The notes beneath the pieces were generated by a model. The model was not told the origin of the DNA. It made no database searches and was given only the letters and a program-made list of their open reading frames with translations. Below are positions 53,738 through 62,244 of a stretch of DNA of 64,000 nucleotides, in pieces. A program made the translations under genes and the position numbers. Source of the DNA: an uncultured Candidatus Saccharibacteria bacterium (GTDB lineage: Bacteria; Patescibacteriota; Dojkabacteria; J137); the NCBI GenBank assembly GCA_964561155.1, contig CAZLOI010000001.1, positions 366,759-430,758 on the forward strand. The letters are read 5' to 3'. Within the stretch, counting starts at the first letter, position 1. Each line of letters begins with the position of its first letter.

Positions 53738-53813
53738 GCTAGGGTAGCTCAGCTGGTAGAGCACTCGCCTGAAGAGCGAGGTGTCGGCAGTTCAAGTCTG
53801 CCCCCTGGCACCA
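53738..53813 (+). tRNA. tRNA-Phe (anticodon GAA), CCA encoded
   Basis: Acceptor GCTAGGG/CCCTGGC(+A, CCA). D-arm GCTCAGCTGGTAGAGC. Anticodon stem CTCGC/GCGAG with loop CTGAAGA. T-arm GGCAGTTCAAGTCTGCC. Confidence 0.88.
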
Positions 53814-53821
53814 AATCAATT

Positions 53822-54326
53822 TTATAGTTTGATTATTAGATCTTTCAAAACTTCTGCTAAAGCTAGATGTGATTCCTTGTCAAAATGTATTCCATCAACT
53901 CCAGCTTTTGATACTGTACTAGCATCAAAGAAGAAAACATTGTTTTCTTTTGCAAGAGAATGAATGCTTTCTGATAAACTTCTAGAGTCTGATGCAGATT
54001 TATCATTGTAGTTTTCAGAATAATATTCCTTGAATTTAGGGGCATCGCTGTTTATATGTATAGGACTAACTAACAATATTTCTACTGCTGGATTATGAAG
54101 TCGAATCTCATTGATAAATAAACTGATTGCATTCGCTATTTCATTAGGAGCTCTTTCAAATTGGATTTTCAGATCATTAGTACCCAGCATTATGAGTACT
54201 ATTTCTGGAGAGTTGCTGGCCAAACATGCTATAAAGTAAGTTAATCCATTTCGATAAGGTTTTCCTACATGATCTAAATTAGTCGTTCTACTCCCAAACC
54301 TTCTTCAATAATGGAGCAATTCTCAT
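53822..54326 (-). pseudogene. SGNH/GDSL-family hydrolase, 5'-disrupted (frameshifted or truncated)
   Basis: Intact reading frame 53822-54223 (TTG start) carries SGNH blocks III (MLGTNDL) and V (DGIHF). A block-I-like FGSRTT lies just upstream in the same frame with no start codon before the stop. A short ATG ORF (MRIAPLLKK, ATG at 54326) sits in the +1 frame immediately upstream. Confidence 0.45.
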
Positions 54327-54480
54327 AATGAACGGTTGTATAGGGCTTAAATCTACTGTTTGATAAATCCTATACTTGTAAACTCCAAATAAATAAATGT
54401 ATACGTACTCAAAGTATAGAAAATATTGATCCTAGAACGTTTTTCCTGTATCCTGATTAATAAATACGTATAGCTATAGC

Positions 54481-57400
54481 ATGCATTTTTTACTTCTAAG
54501 ATCATATATAAAAAATAGATCATCTAAAAAAACGGACATTTATGTCTTGCCGGTGTTTGTCGCCTATCTAGTACTTTTGGTTAACCCCTTAATGCAGGTT
54601 TTTGCAGTTACTAGTACTTGGGATTTCACACAGGGTGCTGATTACACTTTCGATACGAACGAAATAGAATTTACAGGTGGTTTTACTCAATTAAAAGAAT
54701 CGGGAACCCCTACTTGGTTTGATAATGAGTGGAAGTATAGAAAAAAGATAACAATAGCTGCTGATTCCGTTAACGAAGATCTATCTAATTTCCCAATGCT
54801 TGTTAGGTTAAATTCTACTAACTTTGATTTTGCTAAATCTCAATTAAACGGGTACGATATTAGATTCACCTCAGCAGATGGTACTACACTTCTGGATTAC
54901 GAAAGGGAATATCATAGCTGTGAAAGTGAAACTGCAGAATACTGGGTAAATATCCCTGACATTTCGAATTCCATAGACACAGACATTTATATTTATTACA
55001 CTCCATCTGCAGTGTTATGCGGAAGCCCTTCAACTCTTCATGCATATTCTGCAGGTGACCAGAATGAAGCTTTTCTAGATCAGGCGGAGATAGAGTCTTC
55101 TTCGGGACTTACTTACAATGCAAATGCAGCTACAAAAAGTGGGAGTAATCCATTACTGGAAACTGGAATAAATACTGCTACTTGGGATCATGATAAGAAC
55201 TATAACTCAGTTTTGAAAATAGACGATACATATAAGATGTGGTATTCGGCGGTTACTAATGAAGGTACGCCTAGATTGTTTCAAGCATATGCTACTTCTG
55301 TAGATGGTATTACCTGGAGTAAACCAAATCTAGGTTTAATATCATACAGTGGAAATACAAATAACAATTTGTATTTAGGTGCGGGATCTTTTAATGCTGG
55401 TGTTGTATATGATGCCTCAGCACCTTCTGACAGAAAGTATGTGGCTATTCATGAACACCGTGTTGGTGATACTTCAGGTGGAGATCTTTATATTTATAAA
55501 TCTTCCGATGGTATAAGCTGGTCTCTGGCACGTACTGTAGTTCCTCCAGTAGCTTATGTAGAAGCGAAAGAAATCGTACAAAGACCAGATGGTAGGTATA
55601 TCGCTTATTATACCTTTGGCCATGATACGGATAATCGTAAATTAGCGGCTAGCATTTCAGATACAACAGATCCAACTGGAACTTGGACTAATTACGGTAC
55701 AGTAATTGAAACTACTGTTTCGACAGCTCAAAAATACAGTATAGGCGTCGAGATAATCGGAGAACTTTATTATGGAATGGTGTCTGACTACAATGCAACC
55801 ACAGAACTAATAGAAATGGATTTGTATGTTTCAAGAAATGGCTTAACCTGGACTTTAGTAAAAGATAAGTGGCTACCTTTGGGTATATCTGGTCAATGGG
55901 ATGACAGTATGACAATGAATGGGAAATCTTTGATACACGAAGGGAATGAGTTGAGATTCTATTATTCTGGATTTGCTGAAAATCATGCACATGCAGTACC
56001 AAGAGATGCTCGTATCGGACTTGCTACAGTTGGGTATCAAAGAATTGGGGAGGTAGTAGGTAATGGAACCTTGATAACCAATGCGTTTCAGCCTACAGAC
56101 GATCTAACTTTGAATGGTAATTTTACAGATAATTTCAAAGTTGAAGTTCTTGATGCAGACGACGACTCTGTTATTACGGGATTCTCACAAGCTGACTTTG
56201 ATCCTATCATAGGAGACACATATAGTACTGAAGCGACATGGGAAGGAGTATCTATACCTACAGATCAAGAAGTAAAACTTAAATTTTATATTGATGTTGA
56301 TCCACTATCTAAAGCAGATGGTGCAGATCCTATTGGAACATGGAATTCAAATTATAAATCTGTTTTGCATATGTCTGATGATCCGAATAGTACAACTATT
56401 ACTCAAGATTCGACTACAAACAATAATGATGGTTCTAAAGTATCAGCTAACAATCCTCCACAAAGCACTTCAGGGAAAATATATAATGCTCAAAGTTTTG
56501 ATGGTACAAATGATAAGATAACATTAGCTGATACTGCATCTCTTCAGCCAAGTTCTGAATTTACAATTGAGGCTTGGATAAATCCCACATCTTGTACTCA
56601 ATTAGATCGTATAATTTCAAAATGGGACGGTAATACTACAGGAACAGATAGCGGAGCTATTCTTTTTGACACTTATGATGGTACTACGGATGGCTGCGGA
56701 ATAAGACTTGCGCTATTCAATTCTTCAGATGCAGTAGTTGTTACTTCAGCTTCTGGTAATATATACTCAGCAGGTGTTTGGACACACGTCGCTGCTAGAT
56801 TTTCAAGCGGGATAATGAATACATATGTAAACGGGGTACAAACTAGTTCAGGGAATTTAGTCCAGACCTCACTAGTTAATTCAACTTTTGCTTGGGGAAT
56901 TGGAGAGGATGGTAATGGCCCTGGAAGTGATAGTGAATTTTTCACGGGTTTAATGGATGAAATTCGAATCTCAACAAGCGCACGTTCAGTTAACTGGTTG
57001 CTAGCTAGTTATGGTAATCAGAATTCACCTAGCACATTCTTCTCTTTATCAACTGAGCAGACTTTATACTCTACAAATAATCCCATTGTTACTCCTGATG
57101 CTTCGATAACTTTTGCAACTTTATCTGGATTCTCAGAAACTGCTAATAAAAATGGCGGGGAAATTAAGTATCAAATATCTAATGACAATGGAAGTACCTG
57201 GTATTGGTATAACGCAGGATGGTCCACTACAGCTACTGGGTATAGCGAAGCCACAACTGCAACAATTATTAACTCTAATATTGGAACATTTCCTGAAGGA
57301 GACGGGGAGTTTATTTTCCGTGCTTACCTGCATTCAGATGGCACTCAACTAGTTCAATTAGATGAAATACAATTAACATATGCAAATGATATTGAAGCTC

Positions 57401-60985: not shown

Positions 60986-61369
60986 CTATATCTCTACTGG
61001 AAAAAGTTTAGGTAAAGTCTTGTGTAGAAGAACCTGTATCTTTAAATAACTTTCGAAGTATTCATTTGTTAGAATATTCCTCTGCTCTTCTGAAGCATAT
61101 TCTGTAGCACGTATAAAATCATGGGATTGCTGGAAGAATGCATATATTTCTACATACAACTCATACTCTATGAGATCAAGACCTGGATCTTCACACTTGT
61201 CTGAAAGATACTCGAGTAGATAGCTTAGGAAAGTTCCAATTAATGCTGGCTCTGCAACATTATCTACAAACTGAGACCAACGATATAGAATTCTTGATCT
61301 CTCAATTCTATGTTCGGCAACATCTATATCCTCTTCTACCGCTAAAGGTTTTATCTCTTTTATTCTCAT
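60986..61369 (-). CDS. small acidic hypothetical protein, paralog B (ends FPVEI)
   Basis: 127 aa. Tandem paralog of 60595-60984. No signal peptide. No known motif recognised. Confidence 0.55.
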   Translation of the reverse strand: MRIKEIKPLAVEEDIDVAEHRIERSRILYRWSQFVDNVAEPALIGTFLSYLLEYLSDKCEDPGLDLIEYELYVEIYAFFQQSHDFIRATEYASEEQRNILTNEYFESYLKIQVLLHKTLPKLFPVEI

Positions 61370-61479
61370 ATTCTTTATTAACGCCAGATTATAATAACAT
61401 CGTGTTAAATTTACAAACGCAATATCTAGAAACCCTTTTTTGGTGTATCATCAAAATGTATAAATATTAAATAGACCCA

Positions 61480-62118
61480 ATGAAAAAAACAGTATTCTTC
61501 GTTTCAATGATCATATTCGGATTGCTTGCTATATGTATGCTTGGTTTCTTTATGTTTGGATACTTCGAAATAGGAGGTGTCTGTAGATTCAAAGGTCCAT
61601 TGTCATCAGTTCAAGGTGGAGCATGTGCTGGAGTTCAGGGGAATTCATACAGTGGTAGATACAGCGATGATTTAAGCTTAACTATTCCTGCAAACTTCTT
61701 TGTTAACGAAGAAGTTGAAGAGAATGAAGAGTCTGAAATTACATTCATCTTTTCAAAGGATCCAGAAACTGTTGAAGAAGGAGAGTTTGCTCCAAACCTA
61801 AACATTATTAAATCTAAGGACTATATAGAGTTTTCAGATAGTGTTTGTGAGGAACTAATTGATGCAAGTATCGAACAACTAACACCATACTACGAAAGTA
61901 TAGATAACGGAGGAGCAGAAATGGAAGATATTAATGGAGTTGGTGCTTGTGTAACACAGTGGGAAGGTAAACTAAGCGGTTTAGAGCTATTTCAGAAGCA
62001 GTTTGCAGTACCTCATGAAGAGAGTCAGGTTGTTTACTACTTTACTATAACAACAGACAGAGAACTATCTGAACTAGAAGTTTTGAATAGTATTGTTGCT
62101 AGCTTAAAATTAATCTAA
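61480..62118 (+). CDS. secreted Cys-containing hypothetical protein
   Basis: N-terminal signal/TM MKKTVFFVSMIIFGLLAICMLGFFMFG. Five Cys residues. Acidic. No motif recognised. Confidence 0.5.
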   Translation: MKKTVFFVSMIIFGLLAICMLGFFMFGYFEIGGVCRFKGPLSSVQGGACAGVQGNSYSGRYSDDLSLTIPANFFVNEEVEENEESEITFIFSKDPETVEEGEFAPNLNIIKSKDYIEFSDSVCEELIDASIEQLTPYYESIDNGGAEMEDINGVGACVTQWEGKLSGLELFQKQFAVPHEESQVVYYFTITTDRELSELEVLNSIVASLKLI

Positions 62119-62171
62119 GAGGAGTTTTCAGTTAGGAATATTTAAGGTATAATTCAGGACACAGTGCCTTA

Positions 62172-62244
62172 GGGCAGTTAGCTCAGCTGGTAGAGCGCCC
62201 CGTTTACACCGGGATGGTCATAGGTTCGAATCCTATACTGCCCA
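62172..62244 (+). tRNA. tRNA-Val (anticodon TAC)
   Basis: Acceptor GGGCAGT/ACTGCCC(+A). D-arm GCTCAGCTGGTAGAGC. Anticodon loop TTTACAC. T-arm ATAGGTTCGAATCCTAT. 73 nt. Confidence 0.85.

What the first reader, a model, noticed from the sequence alone, without database searches (positions are those of the whole stretch)
53738..62244. tRNA-Phe to tRNA-Val bounded 8.4-kb accessory segment made of surface and unknown-function genes
Between tRNA-Phe (53738-53813) and tRNA-Val-TAC (62172-62244) lie four elements: a decayed SGNH hydrolase gene, a 257-bp AT-rich spacer, the 5.6-kb giant surface-protein gene and a block of small unknowns (DUF1801, two tandem paralogs, a secreted Cys protein). There are no housekeeping genes. 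Convergent genes abut with zero spacer at 60594/60595. A tRNA-flanked block of surface and unknown genes plus a pseudogene is typical of a variable region. No integrase or transposase was seen, so mobility is not demonstrated.
Basis: inference. Interest (0 to 1): 0.55.

Follow-up and report, generated by a model that had tools for sequence, protein, structure and literature searches.

The report
Variable gene slot beside tRNA-Phe
In this tiny uncultured bacterium (Candidatus Dojkabacteria), the DNA right after the tRNA-Phe gene is a swap-in slot that holds unrelated genes in each of four related genomes (here a broken esterase gene and a giant sugar-binding surface protein), a familiar kind of flexible genome region rather than a new mechanism.

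Summary
The interpretation as a variable region is right in spirit, but the boundaries are wrong.

A close relative (L094, flanks 93.5% identical) is collinear with the window up to the last base of tRNA-Phe (53813). Collinearity resumes 4 bp before the DUF1801 start codon (60165). In between, the window has 6.35 kb (SGNH pseudogene plus a 1858-aa surface protein gene), and L094 has an unrelated 1.5-kb Fic-like gene. Two more distant relatives carry other unrelated cargo at the same place: a 202-aa unknown gene and an 8-gene glycosylation cluster.

DUF1801, one paralog, the secreted Cys protein, tRNA-Val and the membrane gene beyond it are conserved with L094. tRNA-Val is therefore not a boundary. 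The second paralog (60595-60984) is a separate small indel.

The window has no integrase, no tRNA-end repeat and native codon usage. L094, however, carries a partial copy of the tRNA-Phe 3' end (14 nt exact) at the right edge of its cargo, and L001 has a decayed version at the same position. This points to an old integration site whose cargo turns over.

Verdict: a tRNA-Phe-adjacent flexible islet, a new member of a known kind, of modest interest.

The parts
53303..53694 (+). Two small conserved ORFs (69 aa at 53303-53512, 60 aa at 53512-53694). They form the left conserved flank between MutL and tRNA-Phe.
   Evidence: 98.6% and 91.7% aa identity in L094; the 69-aa ORF is 74% identical in L005.
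53738..53813 (+). tRNA-Phe(GAA). Its 3' end is the exact left breakpoint of the variable slot.
   Evidence: ARAGORN and Rfam. The blastn alignment with L094 ends at 53813. The tRNA is identical in 4 genomes, and all similarity stops at its last base.
53814..60164 (.). Variable slot (cargo interval) between tRNA-Phe and DUF1801. It is 6.35 kb here and is replaced by unrelated DNA in L094 (1.5 kb), L001 (1.4 kb) and L005 (8.3 kb).
   Evidence: No pairwise similarity among the four cargos by tblastx or blastn.
53822..54305 (-). Decayed SGNH/GDSL hydrolase gene (pseudogene). The ORF 53822-54223 holds the C-terminal two thirds. There is a frameshift near 54290, in-frame stops further upstream, and the block I (catalytic Ser) region is not recognisable. 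Faint remnants may reach about 54408.
   Evidence: Pfam; six-frame translation; weak NCBIfam similarity to acetylxylan esterase. The same state is seen in an independent assembly, L093.
54481..60057 (+). Gene for a 1858-aa surface protein. Domain order: signal/anchor, DUF2341, five-bladed beta-propeller (GH130/GH43/GH32-like), LamG/ConA-like lectin domain, beta-sandwich and Big_13-like domains, 6 tandem ~93-aa OmpL47-type/Ig-like repeats (57.7-59.4 kb), 2 CarboxypepD_reg-like domains, C-terminal TM helix with a basic tail.
   Evidence: Pfam; NCBIfam; PHROGs repeat hits; DNA repeat families; AF2 model and Foldseek (low-confidence model); ortholog alignment.
60169..60594 (+). DUF1801 gene. It is the conserved right anchor of the slot in all four genomes.
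   Evidence: Pfam. 90% aa identity in L094, 62% in L001, present in L005. Homology with L094 resumes at 60165.
60595..60984 (-). parA, a 129-aa orphan gene and distant paralog of the next gene. Absent from L094, so this is a second, small indel.
   Evidence: Close variants exist on other Logan contigs.
60986..61369 (-). parB, a 127-aa orphan gene. It is conserved in L094 but fast-evolving (70% aa identity, against 90-97% for neighbours).
   Evidence: It matches only its own cluster among 1.84 billion representative proteins.
61480..62118 (+). Secreted or membrane-anchored Cys-containing protein ('sec212'). It is specific to this lineage and travels with tRNA-Val(TAC).
   Evidence: Only 5 clusters among 5.8 billion proteins. 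Homologs are found next to MutL/tRNA-Val in L001, L005, L091, L092 and L094.
62172..62244 (+). tRNA-Val(TAC). It is not a boundary: the sec212-tRNA-Val-membrane gene arrangement is collinear with L094 and L092.
62289..64000 (+). Membrane protein gene (LA_3751/3752-like putative glycosyltransferase) running off the end of the window. It forms the conserved right flank.
   Evidence: Six-frame translation; NCBIfam (below cut-off); 91% aa identity to a 575-aa gene in L094.

Best explanation
The segment is a composite. Its core (53814-60164) is a flexible 'slot' on a Candidatus Dojkabacteria chromosome. It is bounded on the left by the 3' end of the tRNA-Phe gene and on the right by the conserved DUF1801 gene.

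SHOWN: Each of four related genomes carries completely unrelated cargo in this slot. Here the cargo is a decayed SGNH esterase gene plus an intact gene for a 1858-aa anchored surface protein built from glycan-binding/processing modules. Elsewhere it is a Fic-like 412-aa gene, a 202-aa unknown gene, or an 8-gene glycosylation cluster.

At genus level it is rearranged around the two tRNA genes, and one small orphan gene (parA) is gained or lost.

INFERRED mechanism: The tRNA-Phe 3' end was once used as an attachment site by an integrating element. That event left a partial tRNA-Phe 3' copy in front of DUF1801, still visible in L094 and, decayed, in L001. Since then cargo has turned over between these conserved flanks, either by further site-specific events or by homologous recombination in the flanks with DNA from related Dojkabacteria. 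In the window's lineage, the incoming SGNH+giant block overwrote the scar and the old DUF1801 promoter region.

INFERRED consequence: Related cells differ in a large exposed glycan-binding protein, in its repeat number, or in glycosylation genes.
For: - Organism: MutL homologs are named Candidatus Dojkabacteria.
- Breakpoints: window 46278-53813 aligns to L094 1-7532 at 93.5% identity, ending at the last base of tRNA-Phe. Homology resumes at window 60165 = L094 9049, 4 bp before the DUF1801 ATG.
- Cargo sizes are 6355, 1520, 1441 and 8255 bp in the window, L094, L001 and L005. No pair shows similarity by tblastx or blastn.
- Control: on the other side of MutL, gene order is identical in all relatives down to 47% MutL identity.
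- Scar: L094 9002-9015 is an exact copy of the last 14 nt of tRNA-Phe, same strand. None of 100 shuffles gave a match even with 1 mismatch. With gaps the copy extends to about 36 nt covering the T-arm. L001 has a decayed copy at the homologous position, followed by a shared TATAAT region.
- The giant gene is patchy and sits elsewhere in other genomes. Its only close orthologs (62% and 57% identity) lie next to tRNA-Glu/NusA (L089) and next to SWIB (L090), and none came from the MAGs of L001 or L005.
- Native codon usage and GC fit exchange among close relatives.
- Same-species contigs from another sample confirm both ends of the window arrangement (L093 at 99.95%, L092 at 98.4%).
- Divergence is raised in the genes just right of the slot (DUF1801 85-87%, parB 58-75%, against about 91% further out). 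This pattern is described for replacement islands (PMC4033161).
- Surface and glycan character of the cargo: and for L005.
Against: - The window has no integrase, no tRNA-end repeat and no compositional anomaly, so no mobility mechanism is shown for its own cargo.
- Only four informative genomes were compared, and all differ from the window at species level or beyond (at most 93.5% DNA identity). The one same-species sample shows no variation.
- At genus level these genomes are rearranged here anyway. The tRNA order is Phe...Val in the window, L094 and L006, but Val then Phe in L001 and L005, so some of the 'variation' is general scrambling.
- The left flank shows no divergence gradient.
- The L001 scar is not significant on its own (local score 16 against a background of 8-13).
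- The cargo functions are not all surface-related: L094 has a Fic-like gene and L001 an unknown one.
- The junction between the giant gene and DUF1801 (60098-61334) is not covered by an independent assembly.
Confidence: 0.72

Rival explanations
1. A single integrase-mobilised genomic island spans the whole tRNA-Phe to tRNA-Val interval, with the two tRNA genes as its ends. This is the stronger reading of the first reader's idea.
For: tRNA genes lie at both ends, the content is accessory-looking and a pseudogene is present.
Against: The right third of the interval and the gene beyond tRNA-Val are collinear with L094 and L092. DUF1801 and sec212 lie next to MutL in all subclade relatives. No integrase and no direct repeats were found. 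Composition is native.
Confidence: 0.04
2. There is no hotspot, only ordinary genome scrambling and differential loss. An ancestor carried more genes here, and each lineage kept a different subset or moved genes in and out by random rearrangement. The SGNH+giant pair would be old residents that L094 deleted.
For: The SGNH gene is a decayed, apparently old resident. tRNA order and sec212 orientation differ between genera. Composition is native. The giant orthologs at 57-62% identity show about the same divergence as the MutL of genus-level relatives.
Against: Four genomes have four unrelated cargos at exactly the same two boundaries. More than 7 kb on the other side of MutL keeps perfect synteny at all distances. 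Between the window and L094, the only structural differences in 17.7 kb fall in this segment. The L094 scar implies an empty tRNA-Phe|DUF1801 state before its cargo arrived.
Confidence: 0.15
3. Assembly artefact: the source MAG contig wrongly joins the giant-gene contig to the DUF1801 side at a strain-variable or repeated point.
For: Logan contigs from SRR8750958 stop at 60097 and restart at 61335. In the same sample the sec212 region is 1.6% diverged while the giant region is 0.05% diverged, so strains are mixed. Contigs of two closer relatives break next to MutL.
Against: The source contig is 462 kb. The left junction (tRNA-Phe-SGNH-giant) and the right junction (parB-sec212-tRNA-Val-membrane gene) are each confirmed independently. 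The gene order tRNA-Phe ... DUF1801-parB-sec212-tRNA-Val is the same in L094.
Confidence: 0.03

Closest known systems
Replacement flexible genomic islands of aquatic prokaryotes (Alteromonas, Haloquadratum and others; Lopez-Perez et al. 2014, PMC4033161)
   Same: The chromosomal position between conserved flanks is fixed, and different genomes hold completely unrelated gene sets there. Typical cargo is exposed structures, including glycosylation clusters and 'giant protein' genes. There are no mobility hallmarks at the borders in the window, composition is native, and divergence is raised in one adjacent flank (paper text).
   Different: That concept is defined among strains of one species (typically above 96% ANI), with evidence of recent exchange. 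Here the compared genomes are at 93.5% identity or less, and no identical cargo shared by divergent backbones was found. Cargo here is functionally mixed (L094 Fic-like, L001 unknown). One relative carries an att-like tRNA fragment.
Classical tRNA-inserted genomic islands (integrase-mediated; reviewed in PMC2704930)
   Same: The cargo starts exactly at the 3' end of a tRNA gene. L094 has a partial direct copy of the tRNA 3' end at the far side of its cargo, L001 has a decayed one, and presence varies among relatives.
   Different: There is no integrase or other mobility gene in any of the four cargos. The window has no repeat and no atypical composition. The size is small (1.4-8.3 kb).
Tycheposons and tRNA-proximal islands of Prochlorococcus (Hackl et al., bioRxiv 10.1101/2020.12.28.424599)
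   Same: Both involve a streamlined genome without obvious plasmids or prophages here, cargo cassettes that accumulate and turn over next to specific tRNA genes, and partial tRNA 'snippets' marking past integrations.
   Different: The defining tyrosine recombinase and replication modules were not found at this locus. No excision or circular forms were tested. Only one locus and a handful of genomes were examined.
DUF2341 + LamG (Laminin_G_3) giant surface proteins of CPR and other bacteria
   Same: The N-terminal DUF2341-LamG module is shared with many 1000-3000-aa proteins, several of them named DUF2341 domain-containing proteins from Parcubacteria, Staskawiczbacteria and others.
   Different: This exact architecture (propeller + LamG + OmpL47-type repeats + two CarboxypepD_reg domains + TM anchor) has only two close orthologs in 5.8 billion proteins. 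Repeat number differs between them: 6, 4 and about 1-2.

Membership tests
Integrase-mediated tRNA-inserted genomic island | Insertion abuts the 3' end of a tRNA gene | tested here: met
   Similarity to L094, L001 and L005 ends at the last base of tRNA-Phe, 53813.
Integrase-mediated tRNA-inserted genomic island | Site-specific integrase (or its remnant) inside the island | tested here: not met
   No recombinase family was found in Pfam, PHROGs, PADLOC or NCBIfam for any ORF in 53814-62171. There is none in the cargos of L094, L001 or L005 either.
Integrase-mediated tRNA-inserted genomic island | Direct repeat of the tRNA 3' end at the distal border | tested here: not met
   There is none in the window, even at up to 2 mismatches in 14 nt or 5 in 30 nt. 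It is present in L094 (14 nt exact, about 36 nt with gaps) and decayed in L001.
Integrase-mediated tRNA-inserted genomic island | Composition differs from the host genome | tested here: not met
   Codon usage and GC lie within the host range. The tetranucleotide outlier is explained by the protein's amino-acid composition.
Replacement flexible genomic island | Same position between conserved flanks, with unrelated gene content in different genomes | tested here: met
   Four genomes have four cargos with no pairwise similarity, all between tRNA-Phe and DUF1801.
Replacement flexible genomic island | Variation among strains of one species, with signs of recent exchange through the flanks | tested here: inconclusive
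   The only same-species material (L092, L093) has the same content. The nearest genome with different content is at 93.5% identity. Divergence is raised in the right flank but not the left.
Replacement flexible genomic island | All versions encode an equivalent exposed or surface function | tested here: inconclusive
   The window has a surface glycan-binding protein and L005 a glycosylation cluster. L094 has a Fic-like gene and L001 an unknown one.
Tycheposon-like cargo element | Lineage-specific tyrosine (or serine) recombinase plus replication module, with partial tRNA repeats | tested here: not met
   No recombinase or replication genes are present. Partial tRNA copies occur only in relatives.
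Functional SGNH/GDSL hydrolase | Intact reading frame with conserved blocks I (GDS), II, III and V | tested here: not met
   Block I is not recognisable, there is a frameshift within block II near 54290, and there are stops upstream. Blocks III (GTND) and V (DGIH) are present.
DUF2341/LamG surface protein | DUF2341 and Laminin_G_3 domains above the Pfam thresholds, with a secretion signal | tested here: met
   PF10102 scores 32.1 bits (cut-off 23.4) and PF13385 scores 83.2 bits (cut-off 27.6). The N-terminal hydrophobic segment and C-terminal TM helix were read directly from the sequence.

The most novel reading that the evidence does not exclude
In CPR bacteria such as Dojkabacteria, which have no recognised plasmids or prophages here, tRNA genes may serve as long-lived docking sites for integrase-less cargo cassettes. 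These would be mobilised in trans or exchanged by recombination across old att scars, in a tycheposon-like system. The giant surface protein gene would be one such cassette. The ~80-nt structured element found in relatives, embedded in partial 5' copies of tRNA-Phe and tRNA-Val, would be a second, undescribed tRNA-targeting mini-element or leader RNA that also drives the local rearrangements.
Probability: 0.15. Interest if true: 0.6.

Novelty: new member of a known kind. Interest (0 to 1): 0.33.

Why it matters
CPR bacteria are thought to live attached to other cells, and large exposed proteins are prime candidates for host or substrate recognition and for phage receptors. This finding shows that a giant glycan-binding surface protein sits in a fixed tRNA-adjacent slot that holds other cargo, including a glycosylation cluster, in sister genomes. 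That gives a concrete, alignable locus for studying how these reduced genomes diversify their surface, and for finding whichever recombinase uses the tRNA-Phe site. It is a useful example, not a surprise: tRNA-linked flexible regions with surface genes are well known in other bacteria.

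Tried and rejected
- Genome-collection scans with MutL. The single-protein scan found nothing. The alignment scan used universal MutL motifs and returned 80 unrelated phyla plus one distant Dojkabacteria, which exhausted that collection.
- A JGI metagenome scan with the sec212 profile found nothing.
- Metagenome and viral scans with the giant-protein alignment gave only distant proteins that share domains.
- I suspected an rRNA gene after tRNA-Val because no ORFs were listed there. Rfam found none, and the six-frame translation showed a long ORF running off the end of the window.
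- The tetranucleotide outlier at 54-60 kb (z 3.0-3.7) was considered as a sign of foreign DNA and rejected. Back-translating the same protein with host codons gives the same distance (20.8 observed against 21.4 +/- 0.9).
- Defence-system and phage-mobility models gave no hits. The only PHROG hits were to the Ig-like repeats.
- PDB sequence searches for the propeller region and for the L094 412-aa protein gave nothing. The 412-aa protein is also absent from the viral and phage collections.
- No repeat of tRNA-Glu flanks the giant ortholog in L089.
- I asked whether L089 and L094, which come from the same sample, are one genome. Probably not: the SSB on L089 is only 35% identical to the window's SSB, while L094 proteins are 90-97% identical to the window's.
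- The promoter/terminator scan showed no enrichment and was not informative.
- The L094 and L001 cargo proteins were tested for homology and show none.

Full report
**What is in the window.** The window comes from a low-GC (about 36%, flat) genome of Candidatus Dojkabacteria (CPR/Patescibacteria). MutL homologs carry that name, and the identical MutL and giant protein lie on a 462-kb NCBI contig. ARAGORN and Rfam place tRNA-Phe(GAA) at 53738-53813 and tRNA-Val(TAC) at 62172-62244, both on the + strand.

Between the two tRNAs lie the following:
- An SGNH/GDSL remnant on the minus strand. The ORF 53822-54223 matches Pfam only over profile positions 75-207 of 208.
- The giant gene, 54481-60057 (1858 aa).
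- DUF1801, 60169-60594.
- Two small minus-strand genes, 60595-60984 (parA) and 60986-61369 (parB).
- A 212-aa protein with an N-terminal hydrophobic segment and four Cys in its mature part that are invariant in the homologs, 61480-62118 (sec212).

DUF1801 and parA abut with no spacer, and parB's stop codon is 1 nt from parA's start codon. The 257-bp 'spacer' is 30.7% GC and partly holds the decayed 5' end of the SGNH gene. One frameshift near 54290 restores blocks II-V, stops lie further upstream, and the catalytic block I is not recognisable. The two small genes are distant paralogs (17% identity, collinear, E 1e-7, shared C-terminal FPxEI). After tRNA-Val, a membrane protein gene starts at 62289 and runs off the window.

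- Direct repeats: neither end of either tRNA is repeated anywhere in the window. The only shared 18-mer is the common D-arm of the two tRNAs.
- Composition: GC, GC3 and synonymous codon usage of all six genes fall within the spread of the 54 other genes of the window.
- Tetranucleotides: a peak at 54-60 kb (z 3.0-3.7) lies wholly inside the giant gene. It is reproduced when the same protein is back-translated with host codon frequencies (observed 20.8, simulated 21.4 +/- 0.9). It reflects the Ser/Thr/Asp/Asn/Gly-rich repeats, not foreign DNA.
- Mobility: no integrase, transposase, phage-mobility or defence model matches.

**Comparison with relatives.** MutL (51328-53193, minus strand) served as the anchor. 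In relatives with 65%, 62% and 47% MutL identity (L001, L005, L006), the genes on one side of MutL keep the window's order: DUF192, ClpP, tRNA-Val(GAC), an aminoacyl-tRNA synthetase, IF3, L35, L20 and a class A PBP. On the other side the content differs:

| Genome | Gene order from MutL |
|---|---|
| L001 | MutL, sec212, tRNA-Val(TAC), tRNA-Phe, a 202-aa gene, DUF1801, then small genes, HhH-GPD, UvrB |
| L005 | MutL, the 69-aa ORF, tRNA-Val(TAC), inverted sec212, tRNA-Phe, eight glycosylation-type genes, DUF1801 |
| L006 | MutL, MurB/MurA, tRNA-Phe, three genes, tRNA-Val(TAC), HhH-GPD, UvrB |

A still more distant Dojkabacteria (L065, 35%) lacks this tRNA neighbourhood altogether.

**The decisive relative: L094.** L094 was reached through a 90%-identity cluster member of sec212. 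It is collinear with the window from the PBP gene to the last base of tRNA-Phe (window 46278-53813, 93.5% DNA identity; MutL 97% aa). It is collinear again from 60165, 4 bp before the DUF1801 ATG, to the end of the window. The exception is that parA is missing and parB is only 70% identical. Between tRNA-Phe and DUF1801, L094 has 1.5 kb with one 412-aa gene that carries an HxxxDGNGR Fic-like motif but has no Pfam or PDB match.

Four genomes therefore share the same two borders and hold cargos of 6355, 1520, 1441 and 8255 bp with no detectable similarity to one another. In all four, the gene next to tRNA-Phe points toward the tRNA. Same-species contigs from another sample reproduce the window's left part (L093, 53786-60097, 99.95%) and right part (L092, 61335-62315, 98.4%). 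The arrangement is thus real and stable within the species as far as sampled.

**Traces of mechanism.** L094 has, 37 bp before DUF1801, an exact same-strand copy of the last 14 nt of tRNA-Phe. No match was seen in 100 shuffles even with one mismatch. With gaps the copy extends to about 36 nt covering the T-arm. L001 has a decayed version at the homologous position, followed by a conserved TATAAT region.

This is the classic footprint of integration into a tRNA 3' end, and its presence in two lineages suggests the site is old. The window and L005 lack it. In the window, homology to L094 resumes only a few bases before the DUF1801 start codon, so the incoming block overwrote that region.

The genes just right of the slot are more diverged from L094 (DUF1801 85-87%, parB 58-75%) than the following 2.6 kb (about 91%). 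The left flank shows no such gradient. This is compatible with exchange through homologous flanks, as proposed for replacement flexible genomic islands (PMC4033161), but does not prove it.

**The cargo.** The giant protein has these parts, in order:
- an N-terminal signal/anchor;
- DUF2341;
- an unannotated region of about 330 aa built from repeated 'SxDGxxW' blades;
- a LamG/ConA-like domain;
- beta-sandwich and Big_13-like domains;
- six ~93-aa OmpL47-type repeats, which also match phrog_10898;
- two CarboxypepD_reg-like domains;
- a C-terminal TM helix with a basic tail.

An AlphaFold model of the unannotated region is weak (pLDDT 51, pTM 0.55). Even so, its best Foldseek matches are uniformly five-bladed beta-propeller glycoside hydrolases and phosphorylases (GH130, GH43, GH32, GH159; E about 1e-7). 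Distant sequence relatives are labelled GH43/DUF377. I therefore infer an anchored protein that binds or processes glycans.

Only two close orthologs exist among 5.8 billion proteins (62% and 57% identity). They have 4 and about 1-2 repeats instead of 6, and they lie in other neighbourhoods: tRNA-Glu/NusA in L089 and SWIB in L090. L089 comes from the same sample as L094 but is probably a more distant organism, because its SSB is only 35% identical to the window's. The SGNH remnant resembles carbohydrate esterases only weakly.

**The small genes.** parB is an orphan: only its own cluster matches among 1.84 billion representatives. sec212 has five clusters in all.

**Conclusion.** The finding is a tRNA-Phe-adjacent flexible slot plus a small neighbouring indel, embedded in lineage-conserved DNA. 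It is not a tRNA-to-tRNA island. It works like the replacement or tRNA-proximal flexible islands known from other streamlined bacteria. Membership in the integrase-island class fails for the window itself, which has no integrase, no repeat and native composition.

Confidence is high that the slot is variable and where its borders lie. It is moderate that an old tRNA-Phe integration site underlies it. It is low on how the present cargo arrived. Novelty: a new member of a known kind.

Noticed in passing
L001 8642-8783(-) and 8996-9125(-); L005 8418-8571(-); L006 5897-6028(-) and 13150-13286(+): In three relatives, tRNA-Phe, tRNA-Val(TAC) and tRNA-Val(GAC) are each preceded by a copy of their own nt 1-18, with the acceptor strand matching the downstream tRNA. 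This is followed by a conserved ~80-nt insert (CTCAAGAGATTCTTAATGAG, a variable hairpin, GAATTxAGAAGATCTTAGTCC, a second hairpin), then GGTAGAGC (tRNA nt 19-26), then 30-40 nt, then the complete tRNA. RNAalifold predicts a long hairpin closed by a D-stem-like helix, with 4 pairs kept by compensatory changes among 5 copies. It has no Rfam family, is absent from the window and from L094, and has no exact match in viral contigs. It could be a mini mobile element or a leader RNA, and the copies could mediate the Val/Phe rearrangements.
   Followed up: partly
L094 7533-9052: The cargo of the nearest relative is a single 412-aa gene containing 'HLKPDGNGRTSE', which resembles the Fic motif HxFx(D/E)GNGRxxR. 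It has no Pfam, NCBIfam, PDB-sequence, phage or viral-contig match. It is bracketed by tRNA-Phe and a partial tRNA-Phe 3' copy (9002-9015 exact).
   Followed up: partly
window 61542-62079 versus L092; window 53786-60097 versus L093: Two contigs from the same sample (SRR8750958) differ very unevenly from the window: 14 SNPs in the 639-bp sec212 gene (2.2%) against 3 SNPs in 6.3 kb across the SGNH remnant and giant gene (0.05%). The assemblies break at 60097 and 61335. This suggests coexisting strains, or a recently exchanged giant-gene block on diverged backbones.
   Followed up: no
window 57700-59400: The six ~93-aa repeats of the giant protein are 65-80% identical at DNA level, with periods of 279-294 nt. 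They match a phage protein family of unknown function (phrog_10898, E 1e-70) and the NCBIfam OmpL47-type domain. The orthologs have 4 and about 1-2 copies, so repeat number is evolving.
   Followed up: partly
L007 and L008 (relatives with 73-74% MutL identity): Both metagenome contigs end within a few hundred bases of MutL on the variable side. L008 shows yet another gene (185 aa, same strand as MutL) at the position where the window has the 69-aa ORF. Assembly breaks here may reflect population variation.
   Followed up: no
L089 9785-9856 and 10001-15001: The 62%-identical ortholog of the giant gene also starts about 150 bp from a tRNA gene (tRNA-Glu CTC, facing away). No tRNA-Glu repeat was found on its other side, and a strong terminator hairpin follows the gene.
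   Followed up: yes
window 63083-63457(-): The 124-aa ORF listed here is an antisense artefact inside the long membrane-protein gene (62289 to beyond 64000), which the ORF lister omits because it runs off the window.
   Followed up: yes
L091 875-2427 and L094 10666-13756: In relatives, tRNA-Val(TAC) is followed (after the membrane gene in L094) by GtrA, HhH-GPD glycosylase and UvrB. The conserved right-hand continuation of this neighbourhood therefore probably lies just beyond the end of the window.
   Followed up: partly
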